64,000 nucleotides of DNA from Holophagales bacterium (GTDB taxonomy: Bacteria > Acidobacteriota > Thermoanaerobaculia > Multivoradales > UBA5704). Position 1 is the first letter of the stretch; every line of letters starts with the position of its first letter. Shown here one piece after another: positions 30,001 to 39,000 of the stretch. The position numbers were made by a program. The stretch is from assembly GCA_031404815.1 (NCBI GenBank), contig JANNIH010000072.1:12100-76099 (forward strand), given 5' to 3'.

Positions 30001-33000
30001 GCTGGTTTGCCGAACAGGTGCGCACCCTCGGTCGCGAGCACGCCGGGCTGCCGATGGGAGAACCGTGATGAGCGGCGACCTGCTGATCGAAAACCTCGCC
30101 GAAGTGGCGACTTCCGAAGGGTCCACTCCGCGGCGGGGTGCGGAGCAGGGCCGCGTGCGCCGCACCCGAGGATCGGAAGGGGCGGAAGGGGTCGAAGTGC
30201 TCTGCCAGGCCGGCCGAATCGTGTTCGTGGGGTCGGAAGGTGAGCGCCGCACCCTCTTTGGCGACCTCCCCGAGACGCCCCGTCTCGACGGCAAGCGCGG
30301 TACGTTGATCCCCGGCTTCGTCGATCCGCACACCCACATCCCTTGGGCCGGCACGCGCGAGACCGAGCTGTTCGAGCGCTTGGGCGGCAAGACCTACCAG
30401 GCGATCGCGGCCGAAGGGGGCGGCATCCTTTCCACCGTCGCCGCCACCCGCCATGCGTCGGAAGACGAAATCACCGGCAACGTCCTGCGCCATCTCGACT
30501 GGATGCTCGCGGGGGGCACCACCACGATCGAAGCGAAGAGCGGCTACGGGCTCAATCTAGCGGATGAGGTGAAGCAGCTGGTGGCGCTTGAGCGCGCGGC
30601 GGCCGAGCACCCGGTGCGGATTTTGCCCACCCTGCTGGCCGCCCACGAGGTGCCGGCGGAGCATCGCGCCGACCCTCGGGGGCGCGCCCGTTACGTCGAT
30701 TTGATCTGCGACGAGATCGTGCCGGCGGTGGCGGCCCGCGGGCTCGCCCGGTTCTGCGATGTCTTCTGCGAGGCGGGAGTGTTTTCGGCCGCAGAATCCC
30801 GACGGGTGCTCGAAGCGGGAATTCGCCACGGGCTCGCGCCCCGCCTTCATGCCGACGAGTTCGCCGATTCGGGCGGGGCGGAGCTCGCGGCCGAGCTGGG
30901 CGCGCTTTCGGCCGATCACCTGATGGCGGTCTCCGAGCGCGGAATCGAGGCGCTCGCGGGGAGCGGAGTCACCGCGGTCCTGCTGCCCGGCACCAGCTTT
31001 TTCTTGAGAAAAGAGCGCTACGCGCCGGCCCGCCGCATGATCGAATCGGGCATTCCGGTGGCGCTCGCCACCGACTGCAATCCCGGATCGTCCTACACCG
31101 AATCGATGCCGATGATCGTGACCCTTGCGGTGTTCCAGCTCGGCCTGTCGGTCGAGGAGAGCCTGACCGCGGCGACGCTCAATGCCGCCTGTAGCCTCGG
31201 GGTGGGCGACGAGGTCGGCACGATCGAGGTGGGCAAGCGCGCCGATCTCGCACTGGTCGATGCGCCGAACCTGCTCCATCTCGCCTACCACTACGGCGTG
31301 AACCCGATCGCGGCGGTCGTCCGCGACGGCCGCTTGGCCTATCGGGCCGGCGGCCGCGTCGTCTAATCCCTCCCCTGCCCGTCAAGCCACCCAGGCCGAT
31401 AGCCTGGGCTAAGTGAAACGGCCCTTCAGGCCGTAAAAATCCGCGGGCGAGGACGTTCTCGGCTGCTAGGATAGCCCCGCATGGGCGCCCTCCCTTTCGA
31501 CTCCCGTTCGCTCTATCTGCTGCTGATCGCGCTGGTCGCGGTGCAGCGGCTCGCCGAGCTTCTGCTCTCGAAGCGCAACCTGGCGCGGTCGCTCGCGGCG
31601 GGCGGACGAGAGGTCGGTTCCGGGCATTATCCGGTCATGGTGGCCCTTCACACCGCGTTCCTGATCGCCTGCCCGGTCGAGGTCTACGGGCTCGATCGGC
31701 CGTTCGTTCCGACCCTGGCGATCGGGTGCGGAGTCCTTCTCGCGCTCGCCACGGCTTTGCGTTATTGGGCGATCGGCACGCTTGGGGCTCGGTGGAATAC
31801 GCGGATCGTCGTCTTGGCCGGCGCGGCGCCGGTGGTCGGCGGGCCGTTTCGGTTCTTGCGCCACCCGAACTACCTGGCCGTGATTCTGGAGATCGCGGTG
31901 CTGCCTCTGTTGCATAGCGCCTGGGTGACCGCGATCGTCTTCTCGGTCGCGAACGCCGCCCTGTTGCGGGTGCGCATCGCCGCGGAAGAAAAAGCGCTCT
32001 CGGAGGTCTCGGGTTACGAGCGCGCCTTCGCCGACAAACCCCGTTTGATTCCTTCCGGATCGGAGGCCTCGTCCCGATGAATGTTCTGTCTGCCGAGGCG
32101 GTCTTGTTTGGCGTCACCGAGATCGCGCAGCGCCACTTGGGCTGGGAGGGTCCGCTCGCCCTCGACATGCGCCTGGTCGAGGACTTGGCGCTCGATTCGG
32201 TGCGGCTGCTCACTCTCGCGGCCGAGGTCGAGAACCGGTTTCGCGTCCTGCTCGACGAGCGGGATGAGGCGGCGCTCGAAACCGTCGCCAATCTGGTCGA
32301 ACTCGTGCGCCGAAAGCTCGAAGCGTGACCGGGAGCCCGCCGGCCGGCCCCTCGGCCGATACGCCTCCGGGGACCCTGCTCGATCTGCTGGCTCGTGCGG
32401 ACCATGCCTCGCAAGGGGGCATCCGCTTGATCGCCCGCGACGAGAGCGCCACCTGGCACGGGTGGGGCGACGTGCGCGCGCGAGCCGAATCGGTGGCGGG
32501 AAACCTCGCCGCGGCGGGCGTCATGCCGGGGGATCGCATCGCATTGGTCTACCCAACCGGGATCGATTTCTTCGCCGCGCTGTTCGGCGTCCTGATCGCG
32601 GGCGGGGTGCCGGTGCCGCTCTATCCGCCGGTGCGCCTCGGCCGGCTCGACGAATACTTCCGCCGCACCGCCCGCATGCTCGAACTGGTGCGCGCCCGCT
32701 TGGTGCTCGCCGATGCGCGTGTCCAGCGCATCCTGGGCGAGGCGATCGCAATCGCCCAGCCGCCGCTCGGCTGCAAGACGCTCGATCAGTTGCCGAACGG
32801 TGCGGCGGTACCCGCGGTTTCGGGTGCGGCTCGGCCGGACGATCTCGCCCTGGTGCAGTACTCCTCGGGCACCACGGTCGATCCGAAACCGGTCGCCCTG
32901 TCGCACCGCGCGATCATCGCCCAGATCGACGCCCTCAATCACTTCTGGAGCGACACGCCGGAACACAGGCACAGCTGCGTCTCCTGGCTGCCGCTCTACC

Positions 33001-36000: not shown

Positions 36001-39000
36001 ACAAGTTTCTGATCGAGATGTCGCGCGGCTGCCCCGAGAAATGCAAATACTGCTGGGCGACGTTCGGCATGGGCAAGTTCCGCTGGCACCCGACCGACAT
36101 GATCCTGCAAGCGATCGAGCGCGCCCGCTCGGTCACCGATCAGCTCGGCTTCGTCGCCACCGCGGTGGGTGACCACCCAGAGATCGAGCGCATCCTGCGC
36201 GAGGCGAACCGGCTCGGTTTCCGCACCTCCGTCTCGTCGATCCGGATTCCGGCGGTGAACGAAGGCGTGCTCGACGCGCTCCACGCCTCAGGCGACCGAT
36301 CGATCACGCTCGCGCCCGAGACCGGCACCGATTCGCTGCGCGTGAAGATGGGCAAGCCGATCCCGAACGACTTCCTGCTCGAGAAAGTCCGCCTGATCTT
36401 CCGCCACCGCTTCACCCAGCTGAAGCTCTATTTCCTGGTCGGCCTCCCCGGCGAAACGATGGACGACGTCCAAGGCATCTTGGAGCTGACCGCCCGCGCC
36501 CACCGTGTGATGCTCGAAGAGAGCGCCAAAACCGGCGTGATCGGCCACATCCATTTGGGCGTGAACGTCCTCGTGCCGAAGCCCTACACCCCCTGGCAGC
36601 GCGAGCCGATGGATACGGTCAAGAGCCTGAACGAGAAGGTCTCGATGCTCAAGCGGGGTGCGGCCAAAATGGCCAACGTCTCGATGGGCTCGCTCTCGGT
36701 CCGCGAAGCGATCTGGCAGACCTACATCAGCAAAGCGGGGAGCGACGCGGCCGACGTGCTCGAACACGCGGCGCGCGGCGAGCATCTCTCGGCCCTCCTC
36801 CGCCGCTTCGAAGCGAAGATCTCGCCGGAGGTCTTCCAGCCGATGGCGGGGGATCTGCGGTGGCACTTTTTGCGGACGGGGTAGCGGCTTACTCCTCCAC
36901 CCGCACCCGCACGTCGAGCGCTTTGGAACCCGCGCGGTCGGTTCCGGCGAGGAACGGATTGATGTCGAGCTCGCGGATCGTCGGGTGGCGCTCGGCGAGC
37001 TGGGCGAGGCGAAGGAAGACCTCTTCGAGGGTCGAAAGGTCCGCCGGGGCGTCGCCGCGCACCCCTTCGAGGAGAGGAAATCCTCGAATCCCGCGGATCA
37101 CCTCGCGCGCCTCGTAGGCTGTGAGCGGCGGTACGCCGAAACGGACATCACGGAACACCTCGACGTATTTGCCGCCGAGCCCGAACATCAGCACCGGGCC
37201 GACCTTCGGCTCGGAGGAGAGGCCAAAAATGATCTCTTGGCCGCCGCGCGCCATCTCTTGCACCAGGAAGCCTTCGATCTTGCCGCTTGCCGCCTGGATG
37301 CGCGTCTCCATCGCGGTGAGAGCGTCCGAGAGCTGGAGGGGATCGCGCAGATCGAGGCGGATCGCACCCGCTTCGCTCTTGTGGATCAAGTCGGCAACGA
37401 CCGCTTTGGCCACCACCGGATAACCGAGCCGGCGGGCGGCGTGGAGCGCCTCTTCGCGCGTCGTCGCCACTTCGTAGCGGGCGACCGGAATGCCGTAGAG
37501 CTCCAAGACGCGGAACGCGTCGCCGGGGGGCAGATAGCCCGATCCGGTGCGCGCAAGGAGCGCCGCCACCGCGGCGTCGTCCACGGCGAACGGTACGGGG
37601 AGCGGCTCGTCCGGCCGGCGGCGCCAGGCGGCGTAGCGGGCAAGCTGTTGCAGCGCTCCGGCGGCCGACTCCGGGAACCGATAGACGGGGGGCAACCCCG
37701 GCCGCAGCTTGATCGTCTCGTAGAATTCATCGGTCGCCATCATCACCGCGAGCACCGGCTTGGCCCTCGTCCGCGCCGCTTCGTCGATCGCTTCCAGCAC
37801 GTCGATCGGGCTCGTGAGCAGAGGGGTCACGTTGATCGCGATCGCCATGTCTACGTTCGGATCGTCGAGCATCGCGGCGAGCGCTCGGCCGTACTGCTCG
37901 GCGTTCGCCGACGCGATCATGTCCACGGGATTGGTGACACTCGCTTCGGCCGGCAGGAACGAGCGGAGGTGCGCTTTGGTCCCCTCGGCCAGTTCCGAGA
38001 TCTCTAGCCCCAAGTTCACGCAGGCGTCGGTCGCCATGATCGCCGGGCCGCCCGCGTTGGTGAGGATCGCGACCCGATCCCCCTCGGGGAGCGGGCAGGC
38101 GTCGAGCGCGCGGGCGACATCGAACAGCTGCTCGATCGTGTCGGCCCGCAGAACCCCGCACTGGTCGAGGATCGCCGAGACCGTGACATCGGCGCCCGCG
38201 ATCGCCCCGGTGTGCGAAGTGGCCGCCCGCGCGCCGGCCGCGGTGCGCCCCGATTTGACCACCAGGATCGGCTTTTTGCGCGACACGCGCTTCGCGATCT
38301 CGGCGAACCGGCGCGGATTACCGAACGATTCGAGATACATCGCGATCACCCGCGTCGCGGGGTCGCACTCCCAATGCTCGATTAAGTCGTTCCCCGAAAC
38401 ATCGGCCTTGTTCCCCATCGAGGCGAACTGAGTGAGGCCGATGCCGAGATCGCCCGCGACGTTCAAGATCGCGACCCCGAGCGCGCCCGACTGCGACACG
38501 AAGCCGATCGACCCCGCCCGCGCGGGGGTCGGCGCAAACGTCGCGTTCAGACTCACCTTCGCCTCGGTGTTGATGATCCCCATGCAGTTCGGGCCGATCA
38601 TCCGCACCCCCGCCGCGCGCACCTTCTCCCGCAGCAGCCGCTCGCGCTCCGCCCCTTCGGCGCCCGTCTCACCGAACCCGGCGGTGATCACGACCAGCCC
38701 TTTGACCCCGTGTTTCAAACACTCATCGACCGCGCCGAGCACGGCCTCTTTGGGGACCACGATGATCGCGAGATCGACCGGATCGGGAACCGCCGCAACC
38801 GTTGGGTAACACCGGAGCGAGTGAATCGCCTTGGCCAGCGGGTTGACCGGAAAAATCGCCCCGGCGAACTCGTTGGCGACCAGATTGTGGAGCAGCGCGT
38901 AACCGATCGAATCGCGACGGCGCGACGCGCCGATCACCGCGATCGAGCGGGGGGAGAACAGGGGATCTAAGGGACGGTCGGGGCGGGTTTCGGTGGGCAT

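What the first reader, a model, noticed from the sequence alone, without database searches (positions are those of the whole stretch)
31481..36884. Five-gene lipid-tailoring cluster: ICMT-like methyltransferase, ACP, fatty-acyl-AMP ligase, geranylgeranyl-reductase-like flavoenzyme, B12-radical-SAM enzyme
All co-directional with 4-8-bp overlaps (a likely operon). An FAAL plus dedicated ACP is the hallmark of fatty-acid hand-off into specialised lipid or lipopeptide pathways. Combined with a B12-rSAM (a C-methylation or C-C coupling chemistry class), a saturase-like FAD enzyme and a membrane methyltransferase, this is a plausible candidate for unusual membrane-lipid biosynthesis (for example methyl-branched or membrane-spanning lipids typical of Acidobacteria). 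That link is inference only.
Basis: inference. Interest (0 to 1): 0.65.

Follow-up and report, generated by a model that had tools for sequence, protein, structure and literature searches.

The report
Phenolic-lipid operon split from its synthase
Four of the five genes are the fatty-acid-loading and tailoring half of a well-known bacterial pathway for alkylresorcinol/alkylquinone "phenolic lipids"; its polyketide synthase has moved to another place in this genome, and the fifth gene (the radical-SAM enzyme) is most likely just a conserved neighbour.

Summary
The five co-directional genes exist, and the family calls are correct: an ICMT-type methyltransferase, an ACP, a FAAL, a geranylgeranyl-reductase-superfamily flavoenzyme and a radical-SAM protein. 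Only the first four overlap (4, 4 and 8 bp). The rSAM follows after a 20-bp spacer.

In at least 18 related Thermoanaerobaculia loci the same four genes sit directly behind a type III polyketide synthase (T3PKS). The order T3PKS-methyltransferase-ACP-FAAL-flavoenzyme matches, as I recall it, the Myxococcus xanthus ftp alkylresorcylic-acid operon. It is an extension of the srsABC/pkqABC alkylquinone operons.

The 64-kb window has no T3PKS. In two sister MAGs, and in the window's own source sample, the T3PKS sits at a second locus. There it keeps the ancestral left flank, so the operon was split exactly at the PKS|methyltransferase junction. All the genes remain under purifying selection (dN/dS 0.07-0.20).

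The rSAM belongs to a broad uncharacterised TIGR03960-like family. It lies 23-9364 bp from the cluster, sometimes behind opposite-strand genes. Ten orthologous loci have it with no cluster nearby, and ftp-like clusters elsewhere lack it. It is structurally far from tetraether synthase.

This is a new member of a known kind. The brGDGT/unusual-lipid idea is not supported.

The parts
31481..32080 (+). ICMT-family integral-membrane methyltransferase. It is the FtpB/SrsB/BpsB-type O-methyltransferase of phenolic lipids.
   Evidence: PF04140 2e-27 and PEMT 1.8e-6. It has the RHPNY...EE motif and about 4 hydrophobic segments. Its PDB match is ICMT 4a2n. It sits directly after the T3PKS in relatives. 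ICMT-like methyltransferases next to a T3PKS are described in PMC9827899. dN/dS is 0.15-0.18.
32077..32328 (+). Stand-alone acyl carrier protein (FtpC-like). It overlaps the ICMT gene by 4 bp.
   Evidence: PP-binding scores 27.2 bits against a cut-off of 20.8. There are weak ACP NCBIfam hits. The LDSV serine motif is present. The gene is conserved in this position in relatives. dN/dS is 0.08-0.17.
32325..34130 (+). Fatty acyl-AMP ligase (FtpD-like). It overlaps the ACP gene by 4 bp.
   Evidence: NF006624 'fatty acyl-AMP ligase' scores 1e-132 (443 bits, below the curated cut-off of 600), while FACL models score at most 164 bits. The best PDB matches are E. coli FAAL 3pbk at 1e-90, then FadD23/32/28. 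dN/dS is 0.16-0.20.
34123..35265 (+). FAD-dependent oxidoreductase of the geranylgeranyl-reductase superfamily. It is the FtpE/SrsC/PkqC-position tailoring enzyme and is inferred to be a ring hydroxylase. It overlaps the FAAL gene by 8 bp.
   Evidence: TIGR02032 9e-32 (below cut-off) and FAD_binding_3 8.5e-16. PDB matches are 3oz2 at 9e-15, followed by aromatic monooxygenases. Its homologues in metagenomes sit next to a T3PKS, ICMT, ACP or FAAL gene in 37 of 62 contigs. dN/dS is 0.11-0.16.
35286..36884 (+). Radical-SAM protein with a Rossmann-like N-domain (TIGR03960-like, function unknown). It is a conserved neighbour and is probably not part of the pathway.
   Evidence: PF19864 plus PF04055, with the CxxxCxxC motif at CPEKCKYC. 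TIGR03960 scores 227 bits against a cut-off of 462. Orthologues across the class are 64-95% identical. The gap to the cluster is 23-9364 bp, and 10 of 38 loci have no cluster nearby. Opposite-strand genes intervene in some relatives. The fold search gives MgmA, AprD4, MiaB and TsrM at TM about 0.5.
31367..31480 (.). The 114-bp spacer between hutI and the ICMT gene. This is the rearrangement junction; in unsplit relatives the T3PKS gene ends 7-139 bp upstream of the ICMT gene at this position.
   Evidence: There is no T3PKS in the window by tblastn. The junction length varies within the clade: about 600 bp with an FKBP gene in L003, and 2.7 kb in L057.

Best explanation
Genes 31481-35265 are the starter-loading and tailoring half of an ftp/srs/pkq-type phenolic-lipid pathway. 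The T3PKS that completes it is encoded at a second locus of the same genome.

Proposed mechanism:
1. The FAAL adenylates a long-chain fatty acid and loads it on the stand-alone ACP, not on CoA.
2. The acyl-ACP primes a T3PKS of the PKS11/FtpA type. The PKS adds three malonyl (or methylmalonyl) units and cyclises the chain to an alkylresorcylic acid or alkylresorcinol.
3. The ICMT-type membrane methyltransferase O-methylates a ring hydroxyl.
4. The flavoenzyme hydroxylates the ring, giving an alkyl-methoxy-hydroquinone/benzoquinone (a 'polyketide quinone').

Shown here: the domain families, the synteny with a T3PKS in relatives, the relocation of the T3PKS with its ancestral flank, and purifying selection on all parts.

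Inferred: the substrates, the order of tailoring steps and the product.

The rSAM at 35286-36884 is a separately conserved gene of unknown function that happens to lie next to the cluster in this lineage.
For: (1) Related loci carry T3PKS-ICMT-ACP-FAAL-flavoenzyme in this order, upstream of the rSAM orthologue. Examples with Pfam calls are L001 and L002. Of 38 orthologous loci with at least 9 kb of upstream sequence, 28 have the cluster.

(2) The literature describes the same pathway.
- FtpA of M. xanthus takes an acyl-ACP made by the FAAL FtpD (PMC5707447).
- The acidobacterium Mor1 has the same ORF organisation, with 47-58% identity to the M. xanthus genes (PMC5006271).
- T3PKS plus methyltransferase plus hydroxylase/oxidoreductase gives alkylbenzoquinones in S. 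griseus and M. smegmatis (PMC9927152, PMC10896814).
- ICMT-type methyltransferases O-methylate T3PKS lipids, as BpsB does (PMC9827899).

(3) The split is documented in three places.
- MAG GCA_038250865.1 has the PKS-less cluster on JBBSBW010000018 and the T3PKS on JBBSBW010000006.
- GCA_035995205.1 has them on DASYKS010000102 (L006) and DASYKS010000114.
- The T3PKS keeps the left flank seen in unsplit genomes: small rSAM, Metallophos_2 and Pyr_redox_2. The four genes keep the right flank: rSAM, then DAGK and RuvB.

(4) The window's own sample, SRR20217199, holds a contig 100% identical to the window (L075). It also holds a T3PKS contig (L074) that is collinear with L072. The dS of that PKS to the sister PKSs (0.57-0.58) matches the dS between the window and its sisters, about 0.5.

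(5) dN/dS is 0.08-0.20 for the four genes and 0.07-0.09 for the relocated PKS, with no stop codons.

(6) The relocated PKS is closest to Mtb PKS11 (3e-107) and CylI. It has the catalytic Cys and the Trp aligned to PKS11 W230 (PMC5916927).

(7) Homologues of the flavoenzyme are T3PKS-linked across metagenomes.
Against: - No T3PKS lies in the 64-kb window. Its presence in this exact genome is inferred from sample co-occurrence and matching divergence, not read from one assembly.
- The flavoenzyme scores best to reductase-type (GGR) models, so hydroxylase chemistry is inferred from context only.
- All curated NCBIfam cut-offs are missed.
- No promoter could be identified upstream of the ICMT gene.
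- The rSAM is adjacent to the cluster, and on the same strand, in 28 of 38 orthologous loci. A lineage-specific tailoring role is therefore not excluded.
Confidence: 0.75

Rival explanations
1. All five genes form one operon for an unusual membrane lipid, such as methyl-branched or membrane-spanning lipids of the brGDGT type. The B12-rSAM does the C-methylation or C-C coupling, and the flavoenzyme saturates the product.
For: The genes are co-directional and tightly packed. The flavoenzyme's best models are geranylgeranyl reductases. The rSAM has a class-B-like architecture, and its best fold matches include cobalamin-dependent methylases.
Against: - The four upstream genes are T3PKS-linked in relatives and across metagenomes.
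- The rSAM scores 24-26 bits to the ladderane-lipid and HpnJ models against 227 bits to TIGR03960.
- GDGT-MAS is only rank 49 in the fold search, with TM 0.25.
- The rSAM is separated from the cluster by up to 9.4 kb and by opposite-strand genes.
- The rSAM is present without the cluster within 10 kb in 10 loci.
- The rSAM is absent from ftp-like clusters L083, L135, L099 and L087.
Confidence: 0.04
2. The rSAM is a true, lineage-specific sixth tailoring enzyme of the phenolic-lipid pathway in Thermoanaerobaculia. It might, for example, C-methylate the ring or the alkyl chain.
For: It lies on the same strand, downstream of the cluster, in 28 of 38 orthologous loci. It stayed attached to the four genes after the split, with a 20-23 bp spacer in the window, L003 and L057. 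Its fold resembles cobalamin-dependent methylases such as MgmA, TsrM and CysS.
Against: - The spacing is variable, and unrelated or opposite-strand genes intervene, such as PKD-domain and AbiEii-like genes.
- Ten loci have the rSAM but no cluster within 10 kb.
- The rSAM is more conserved than the cluster genes, at 94-95% against 84-89% amino-acid identity, with dN/dS 0.07-0.11.
- The family has 1831 50%-identity clusters at E<=1e-30, far beyond this lineage.
- The neighbouring ACS gene is just as syntenic, including in cluster-less loci. This points to general synteny rather than functional linkage.
Confidence: 0.15
3. After losing its T3PKS neighbour, the four-gene module was repurposed. It now makes or modifies a different lipid without any polyketide step, or it is decaying.
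For: There is no T3PKS in cis. A second, independent PKS-less case exists in L016. FADox-YceI pairs without a T3PKS nearby are common in soil contigs.
Against: All four genes are intact and under purifying selection comparable to that on hutI. The T3PKS is retained elsewhere in the same MAGs and is itself under strong purifying selection, with dN/dS 0.067. The split arrangement is stable across at least 5 MAGs that differ by dS of about 0.5.
Confidence: 0.06

Closest known systems
Myxococcus xanthus ftp operon (FtpA T3PKS, methyltransferase, ACP FtpC, FAAL FtpD, hydroxylase; Hayashi et al. 2011, ChemBioChem 12:2166)
   Same: Relatives have the same five functions in the same order, T3PKS-MT-ACP-FAAL-flavoenzyme. 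The logic of a FAAL loading an ACP that then primes a T3PKS is documented in PMC5707447. An acidobacterial copy with 47-58% identity to the M. xanthus genes was reported in PMC5006271. The exact gene order of ftpA-E is from my own recollection of the 2011 paper, which is not in the held library.
   Different: Here the T3PKS gene is not in the cluster; it sits at a second locus. Many relatives add YceI and an MMPL transporter. Direct sequence comparison with the Ftp proteins was not done.
srsABC (Streptomyces griseus) / pkqABC (Mycobacterium smegmatis) / hidABC (cyanobacteria, Planctomycetota) alkylresorcinol-alkylquinone operons
   Same: They share the core of T3PKS plus methyltransferase plus FAD oxidoreductase/hydroxylase that makes methylated alkylresorcinols or alkylbenzoquinones (PMC9927152, PMC10896814, PMC5916927). 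Three-gene T3PKS-ICMT-FADox versions also occur among this flavoenzyme's homologues, as in L089, L152 and L048.
   Different: Those operons lack the dedicated FAAL/ACP loading pair, and their gene order differs in hid. The role as a respiratory quinone is shown only in Actinobacteria.
BpsA/BpsB (Bacillus subtilis) and DquA/DquB (Sporomusaceae)
   Same: An ICMT-family membrane methyltransferase is paired with a long-chain T3PKS (PMC9827899).
   Different: These are two-gene loci that make alkylpyrone products. They have no flavoenzyme, FAAL or ACP.
TIGR03960 family radical-SAM proteins (uncharacterised)
   Same: This is the best model for the window's rSAM: 3.7e-67, covering model positions 21-535 of 605. 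Both have the PF19864 N-domain plus the PF04055 core.
   Different: The score of 227 bits is below the curated cut-off of 462. The window protein lacks the C-terminal extension seen in the 612-827-aa distant homologues. No function is known for the family.

Membership tests
ftp-type phenolic-lipid (alkylresorcylic acid/alkylquinone) gene cluster | A type III PKS (alkylresorcinol synthase) is encoded in the cluster. | tested here: not met
   tblastn finds no T3PKS anywhere in the 64-kb window. It is present in cis in at least 18 relatives. It is present in trans in sister MAGs and in the window's source sample.
ftp-type phenolic-lipid (alkylresorcylic acid/alkylquinone) gene cluster | A fatty acyl-AMP ligase is paired with a stand-alone ACP for starter loading. 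| tested here: met
   The FAAL models are the best NCBIfam hits (1e-132), and all top PDB matches are FAALs. The adjacent 83-aa PP-binding protein has the LDSV serine motif and a 4-bp overlap. Biochemical selectivity for ACP over CoA is not testable here.
ftp-type phenolic-lipid (alkylresorcylic acid/alkylquinone) gene cluster | A membrane methyltransferase sits directly after the T3PKS. | tested here: met
   ICMT PF04140 scores 2e-27. In relatives, the gap between the T3PKS and the ICMT gene is 7-139 bp in 13 loci.
ftp-type phenolic-lipid (alkylresorcylic acid/alkylquinone) gene cluster | An FAD-dependent hydroxylase/oxidoreductase is the last tailoring gene. | tested here: inconclusive
   The family and the position are met: FAD_binding_3 and the GGR superfamily, as the last gene. 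Orthology to FtpE/SrsC, and hydroxylase as opposed to reductase chemistry, were not tested.
ftp-type phenolic-lipid (alkylresorcylic acid/alkylquinone) gene cluster | The product is an alkylresorcinol, alkylresorcylic acid or alkylquinone. | not testable with these tools
   This needs expression and LC-MS. There is only indirect support: the relocated PKS is closest to PKS11 and CylI, and it has the Trp aligned to PKS11 W230 (PMC5916927).
Cobalamin-dependent (class B) radical-SAM lipid methylases and coupling enzymes (HpnJ, ladderane rSAM, tetraether synthase Tes/GDGT-MAS) | The protein passes the family HMM or is the closest fold match. | tested here: not met
   HpnJ scores 26.4 bits against a cut-off of 577.6. 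The ladderane-lipid rSAM model scores 24.4 against 360. GDGT-MAS 7tom is rank 49 in the fold search, with E 1e-3 and TM 0.25.
Cobalamin-dependent (class B) radical-SAM lipid methylases and coupling enzymes (HpnJ, ladderane rSAM, tetraether synthase Tes/GDGT-MAS) | The protein has a recognisable B12-binding domain. | tested here: inconclusive
   Pfam gives PF19864 (Radical_SAM_N2), not PF02310, at E<=0.01. The model has a Rossmann-like N-domain, and the fold matches include both cobalamin enzymes (MgmA, TsrM, OxsB) and non-cobalamin ones (AprD4, MiaB).
TIGR03960 radical-SAM family | The score reaches the curated whole-protein cut-off. | tested here: not met
   The score is 227.2 bits against a cut-off of 462.3. 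The window protein is a relative of the family, not a curated member.

The most novel reading that the evidence does not exclude
In Thermoanaerobaculia the TIGR03960-like rSAM is a real accessory of the phenolic-lipid pathway. It might, for example, carry out a radical C-methylation or cross-linking of alkylresorcinols or alkylquinones. That would give a new lipid class and the first function for this large uncharacterised rSAM family. The split operon would then show that the rSAM travels with the tailoring genes rather than with the synthase.
Probability: 0.12. Interest if true: 0.65.

Novelty: new member of a known kind. Interest (0 to 1): 0.28.

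Why it matters
The finding replaces a speculative 'unusual membrane lipid' annotation with a concrete, testable one. Uncultured Thermoanaerobaculia (Acidobacteriota) widely encode an ftp/srs-type alkylresorcinol/alkylquinone pathway. In Actinobacteria the products of such pathways serve as alternative respiratory quinones under low oxygen (PMC9927152), and in other bacteria they are envelope lipids.

It is also a warning for genome mining. In this clade the core synthase and its loading and tailoring genes lie on different contigs. 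Cluster-based tools would therefore miss or mis-call both halves.

Scientifically it is an ordinary member of a known pathway type.

Tried and rejected
- T3PKS in the window: tblastn with two relatives' T3PKS sequences found nothing.
- Promoter and terminator scan around the cluster: no promoter-like sites, and terminator-like sites at background level, so it was uninformative.
- Rfam scan: no cobalamin or other riboswitch near the rSAM.
- Literature on TIGR03960, PF19864 and DUF2344: nothing relevant.
- Sequence search of the rSAM against the PDB: only weak matches, so I used AlphaFold plus Foldseek instead.
- Assembly accession of the window: exact look-ups of the window's FAAL and UvrD failed. 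Only the Logan sample could be identified, so I could not read the window's own MAG for the T3PKS contig.
- Primary papers: Anand 2015 (PMC6051517) and the S. griseus paper (PMC3294851) are not held, and Hayashi 2011 is not in the library. The ftp gene order therefore rests on secondary citations and my recollection.
- Decay after PKS loss: considered and rejected on the dN/dS values.
- The flavoenzyme as an isoprenoid saturase: considered and rejected as unlikely, given the T3PKS linkage of its homologues. Its chemistry remains untested.
- Opposite-strand ORFs over the cluster (for example 31635-33002 and 34039-35652): treated as high-GC shadow ORFs.

Full report
**Observation.** The + strand carries five consecutive ORFs at 31481-32080, 32077-32328, 32325-34130, 34123-35265 and 35286-36884. 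All have the high GC3 and moderate GC2 typical of real genes in this roughly 68% GC window.

| Gene | Best family evidence |
|---|---|
| 31481-32080 | ICMT (PF04140, 2e-27) |
| 32077-32328 | PP-binding ACP, 27.2 bits against a 20.8 cut-off, LDSV serine motif |
| 32325-34130 | Best model 'fatty acyl-AMP ligase' NF006624, 1e-132; all top PDB matches are FAALs |
| 34123-35265 | Geranylgeranyl-reductase superfamily (TIGR02032, 9e-32) and FAD_binding_3 |
| 35286-36884 | Radical SAM: PF19864 plus PF04055, CxxxCxxC motif |

The overlaps are 4, 4 and 8 bp for the first three junctions. The rSAM follows a 20-bp spacer. 'B12' is a family label only, because the Pfam B12-binding domain is not hit. Upstream lies hutI (TIGR01224, 2.7e-132). 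Downstream, on the other strand, lies an ADP-forming acyl-CoA synthetase.

**What the relatives show.** The rSAM has orthologues at 64-95% identity throughout the Thermoanaerobaculia. Two long contigs, L001 and L002, with precomputed Pfam calls show a type III polyketide synthase directly upstream of the same four genes. The order is T3PKS-ICMT-ACP-FAAL-flavoenzyme, followed by the rSAM. I ran tblastn with the window's proteins against 70 loci fetched around rSAM homologues. Of 38 orthologous loci with at least 9 kb of upstream sequence, 28 carry the cluster. The T3PKS-to-ICMT gap is 7-139 bp in 13 of them.

This is the architecture of the Myxococcus xanthus ftp alkylresorcylic-acid pathway. 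There the FAAL FtpD makes the acyl-ACP that primes the T3PKS FtpA (PMC5707447, PMC8460268). The acidobacterium Mor1 was already reported to share that ORF organisation, with 47-58% identity to the M. xanthus PKS, methyltransferase, AMP-ligase and monooxygenase (PMC5006271). The core trio of T3PKS, methyltransferase and FAD oxidoreductase/hydroxylase is the srsABC/pkqABC/hidABC theme. It makes methylated alkylresorcinols and alkylbenzoquinones, the 'polyketide quinones' (PMC9927152, PMC10896814, PMC5916927). ICMT-type methyltransferases are the known O-methylases of such lipids, as with BpsB and DquB (PMC9827899).

**The window lacks the synthase, but the genome very probably does not.**
- tblastn finds no T3PKS anywhere in the 64 kb.
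- The PKS-less arrangement, hutI-(FKBP)-ICMT-ACP-FAAL-flavoenzyme-rSAM-ACS, is shared by the window's own clade: L003=L008, L006, L007, L057, and L010 in part. These loci are collinear with the window at about 84% nucleotide identity.
- I searched with the T3PKS of the nearest unsplit relative (L062). A tight group of T3PKSs at 87-90% identity came back.
- Two of these lie in the same MAGs as the PKS-less clusters, but on other contigs. In GCA_038250865.1 they are on JBBSBW010000006 against ...018. In GCA_035995205.1 they are on DASYKS010000114 against ...102.
- At the new locus the T3PKS keeps the left flank it has in unsplit genomes. That flank is a small conserved membrane ORF, then on the other strand a roughly 294-aa radical-SAM gene, Metallophos_2 and Pyr_redox_2.
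- The four tailoring genes keep the ancestral right flank: rSAM, then DAGK and RuvB.

The operon was therefore cut exactly between the T3PKS and the ICMT gene.

For the window's own organism the evidence is circumstantial but consistent. A Logan contig from run SRR20217199 is 100% identical to window 33123-36265. A second contig from the same run (L074) carries the small ORF, the T3PKS and the M49 peptidase, collinear with L072. Its T3PKS differs from the sister-MAG genes by dS 0.57-0.58, the same as the window differs from those MAGs, at about 0.5.

**Are the four genes still in use?** Nei-Gojobori dN/dS between the window and four clade members, at dS of about 0.5, is as follows:

| Gene | dN/dS |
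|---|---|
| ICMT | 0.15-0.18 |
| ACP | 0.08-0.17 |
| FAAL | 0.16-0.20 |
| Flavoenzyme | 0.11-0.16 |
| hutI (flank, for comparison) | 0.12-0.14 |

There are no stop codons. The relocated T3PKS has dN/dS of 0.067-0.094. Both halves are maintained, which is what one expects if the pathway works in trans.

The relocated PKS is closest to M. tuberculosis PKS11 (3e-107) and the acyl-ACP-using CylI. It keeps the catalytic Cys and the Trp aligned with PKS11 W230, the position linked to resorcinol formation (PMC5916927). That residue is not fully predictive (PMC9827899).

**The flavoenzyme.** I built an alignment of 13 orthologues and used it to scan metagenome contigs. This returned 80 loci at 37-61% identity. 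In 62 of them more than 600 bp of upstream sequence was available. The immediate upstream gene was a T3PKS in 17, a FAAL in 15, an ICMT in 4 and an ACP in 1. A YceI-like gene followed in 36 of the 53 loci with enough downstream sequence. The enzyme family is thus tied to T3PKS lipid pathways, not to isoprenoid saturation. Whether it hydroxylates, as reported for SrsC-type enzymes, is inferred and not shown.

**The radical-SAM gene.** Several lines argue that it is a neighbour rather than a pathway member.
- The distance from the flavoenzyme gene ranges from 23 to 9364 bp. Intervening genes include YceI and an MMPL transporter on the same strand, which are plausible extras of the lipid pathway. 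They also include PKD-domain, lectin-like and AbiEii-like genes, several on the opposite strand.
- Ten orthologous loci have the rSAM with no cluster within 10 kb.
- Among loci fetched through the flavoenzyme, only 1 of 18 with at least 5 kb downstream has an rSAM homologue, and that one is a Thermoanaerobaculia orthologue. Full ftp-like clusters on long contigs (L083, L135, L099, L087) have none.
- The rSAM is more conserved than the cluster genes, and the downstream ACS gene is equally syntenic.
- The family is large, with 1831 50%-identity clusters at E<=1e-30. It is uncharacterised and is best described as TIGR03960-like: 227 bits, below the cut-off, against at most 41 bits for any other rSAM model.
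- An AlphaFold model (pLDDT 77, pTM 0.79) matches MgmA, AprD4, MtaB/MiaB, TsrM, CysS and OxsB at TM 0.4-0.5. The tetraether synthase GDGT-MAS is only at rank 49, with TM 0.25.

There is a caveat. Absence within 10 kb is not absence from the genome, as the split T3PKS itself shows. Same-strand adjacency in 28 of 38 loci also leaves some room for a lineage-specific role. I put that at about 0.12-0.15.

**Mechanism proposed.**
1. The FAAL adenylates a long-chain fatty acid and loads it on the ACP.
2. The acyl-ACP primes the distant T3PKS. The PKS condenses three malonyl or methylmalonyl units and cyclises the chain to an alkylresorcylic acid or alkylresorcinol.
3. The ICMT-type enzyme O-methylates the ring.
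4. The flavoenzyme hydroxylates it, giving an alkyl-methoxy-hydroquinone/quinone.

Families, synteny, relocation and selection are shown here. Substrates, the order of steps and the product are inferred from the characterised ftp, srs and pkq systems.

**Verdict.** The interpretation as a novel membrane-lipid or brGDGT pathway is not supported, and its stated refutation criteria are met. The locus is a new member of a known pathway type. It has one modest peculiarity, a stable split of the operon from its synthase, and an uncharacterised rSAM neighbour.

Noticed in passing
L072 9555-10004; L071 9387-10004; L074 414-833 (not in the window): A small hydrophobic ORF of about 140 aa with no Pfam hit lies immediately upstream of the T3PKS, usually overlapping its start by 4 bp. 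It is present in about 18 cluster-bearing loci and stayed with the T3PKS after the split. It may be an unrecognised first gene of the operon.
   Followed up: partly
L001 1324-4415; L071 1614-9344; L072 6341-9488: A divergently oriented trio lies next to the T3PKS in both unsplit and split genomes: a small radical-SAM gene (about 294 aa), Metallophos_2 and Pyr_redox_2, at 60-89% amino-acid identity. Its function is unknown, and any relation to the lipid pathway is untested.
   Followed up: partly
L006 9331-9927; L028 3927-6848; L002 9427-9996: Many relatives extend the cluster with a YceI-like lipid-binding protein and an MMPL/RND-type transporter of about 745 aa, after the flavoenzyme gene. 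The window lacks both. FADox-YceI pairs without a detectable T3PKS nearby are common in soil metagenome contigs (for example L107, L112, L093).
   Followed up: partly
L017 2544-5123; L034 1736-3211; L035 3662-5982; L016 3915-5993: The T3PKS|ICMT junction is a hot spot. Inserts there include an AAA_13/SMC-like ATPase, a Schlafen/AlbA_2 protein, and an MFS transporter plus a zinc-ribbon protein (in that case with the ICMT gene missing). L016 is a second, apparently independent PKS-less case.
   Followed up: partly
window 28220-28265 (+): An Rfam Acido-Lenti-1 sRNA motif (40 bits against a gathering score of 37) lies between the YggS-like gene and the DivIVA-like gene.
   Followed up: no
window 28999-30068 (+) and 39742-40341 (-): Toxin-antitoxin or defence-type genes flank the cluster. 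An AbiEii-family nucleotidyltransferase (29325-30068) has a 110-aa upstream ORF. A Fic/DOC protein lies downstream of the ACS gene. The sister MAG L003 has BrnA-like antitoxin genes in the same region.
   Followed up: no
window 35286 vs 35376: A public gene call starts the rSAM at 35376, giving 502 aa. However, residues 18-30 of the longer ORF are conserved across 22 orthologues (W20, E27, R28 and V30 are invariant), so the 532-aa form is more likely.
   Followed up: yes
L058 and L062 (both from MAG DATMZM01, SMAG_U11135): One MAG holds two different rSAM loci. One is of the split-clade type (91% identity, next to the ACS gene). The other is unsplit, with a T3PKS (83% identity). The bin is probably a mixture of two related populations.
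   Followed up: no
window 223-3444 (+); 12316-17751 (-): A 1073-aa CHAT-domain protein and two tandem proteins of about 900 aa with C-terminal VWA domains lie elsewhere in the window. They are unrelated to the finding.
   Followed up: no
window 62001-64000: GC content drops to 0.57 from a window average of about 0.67.
   Followed up: no
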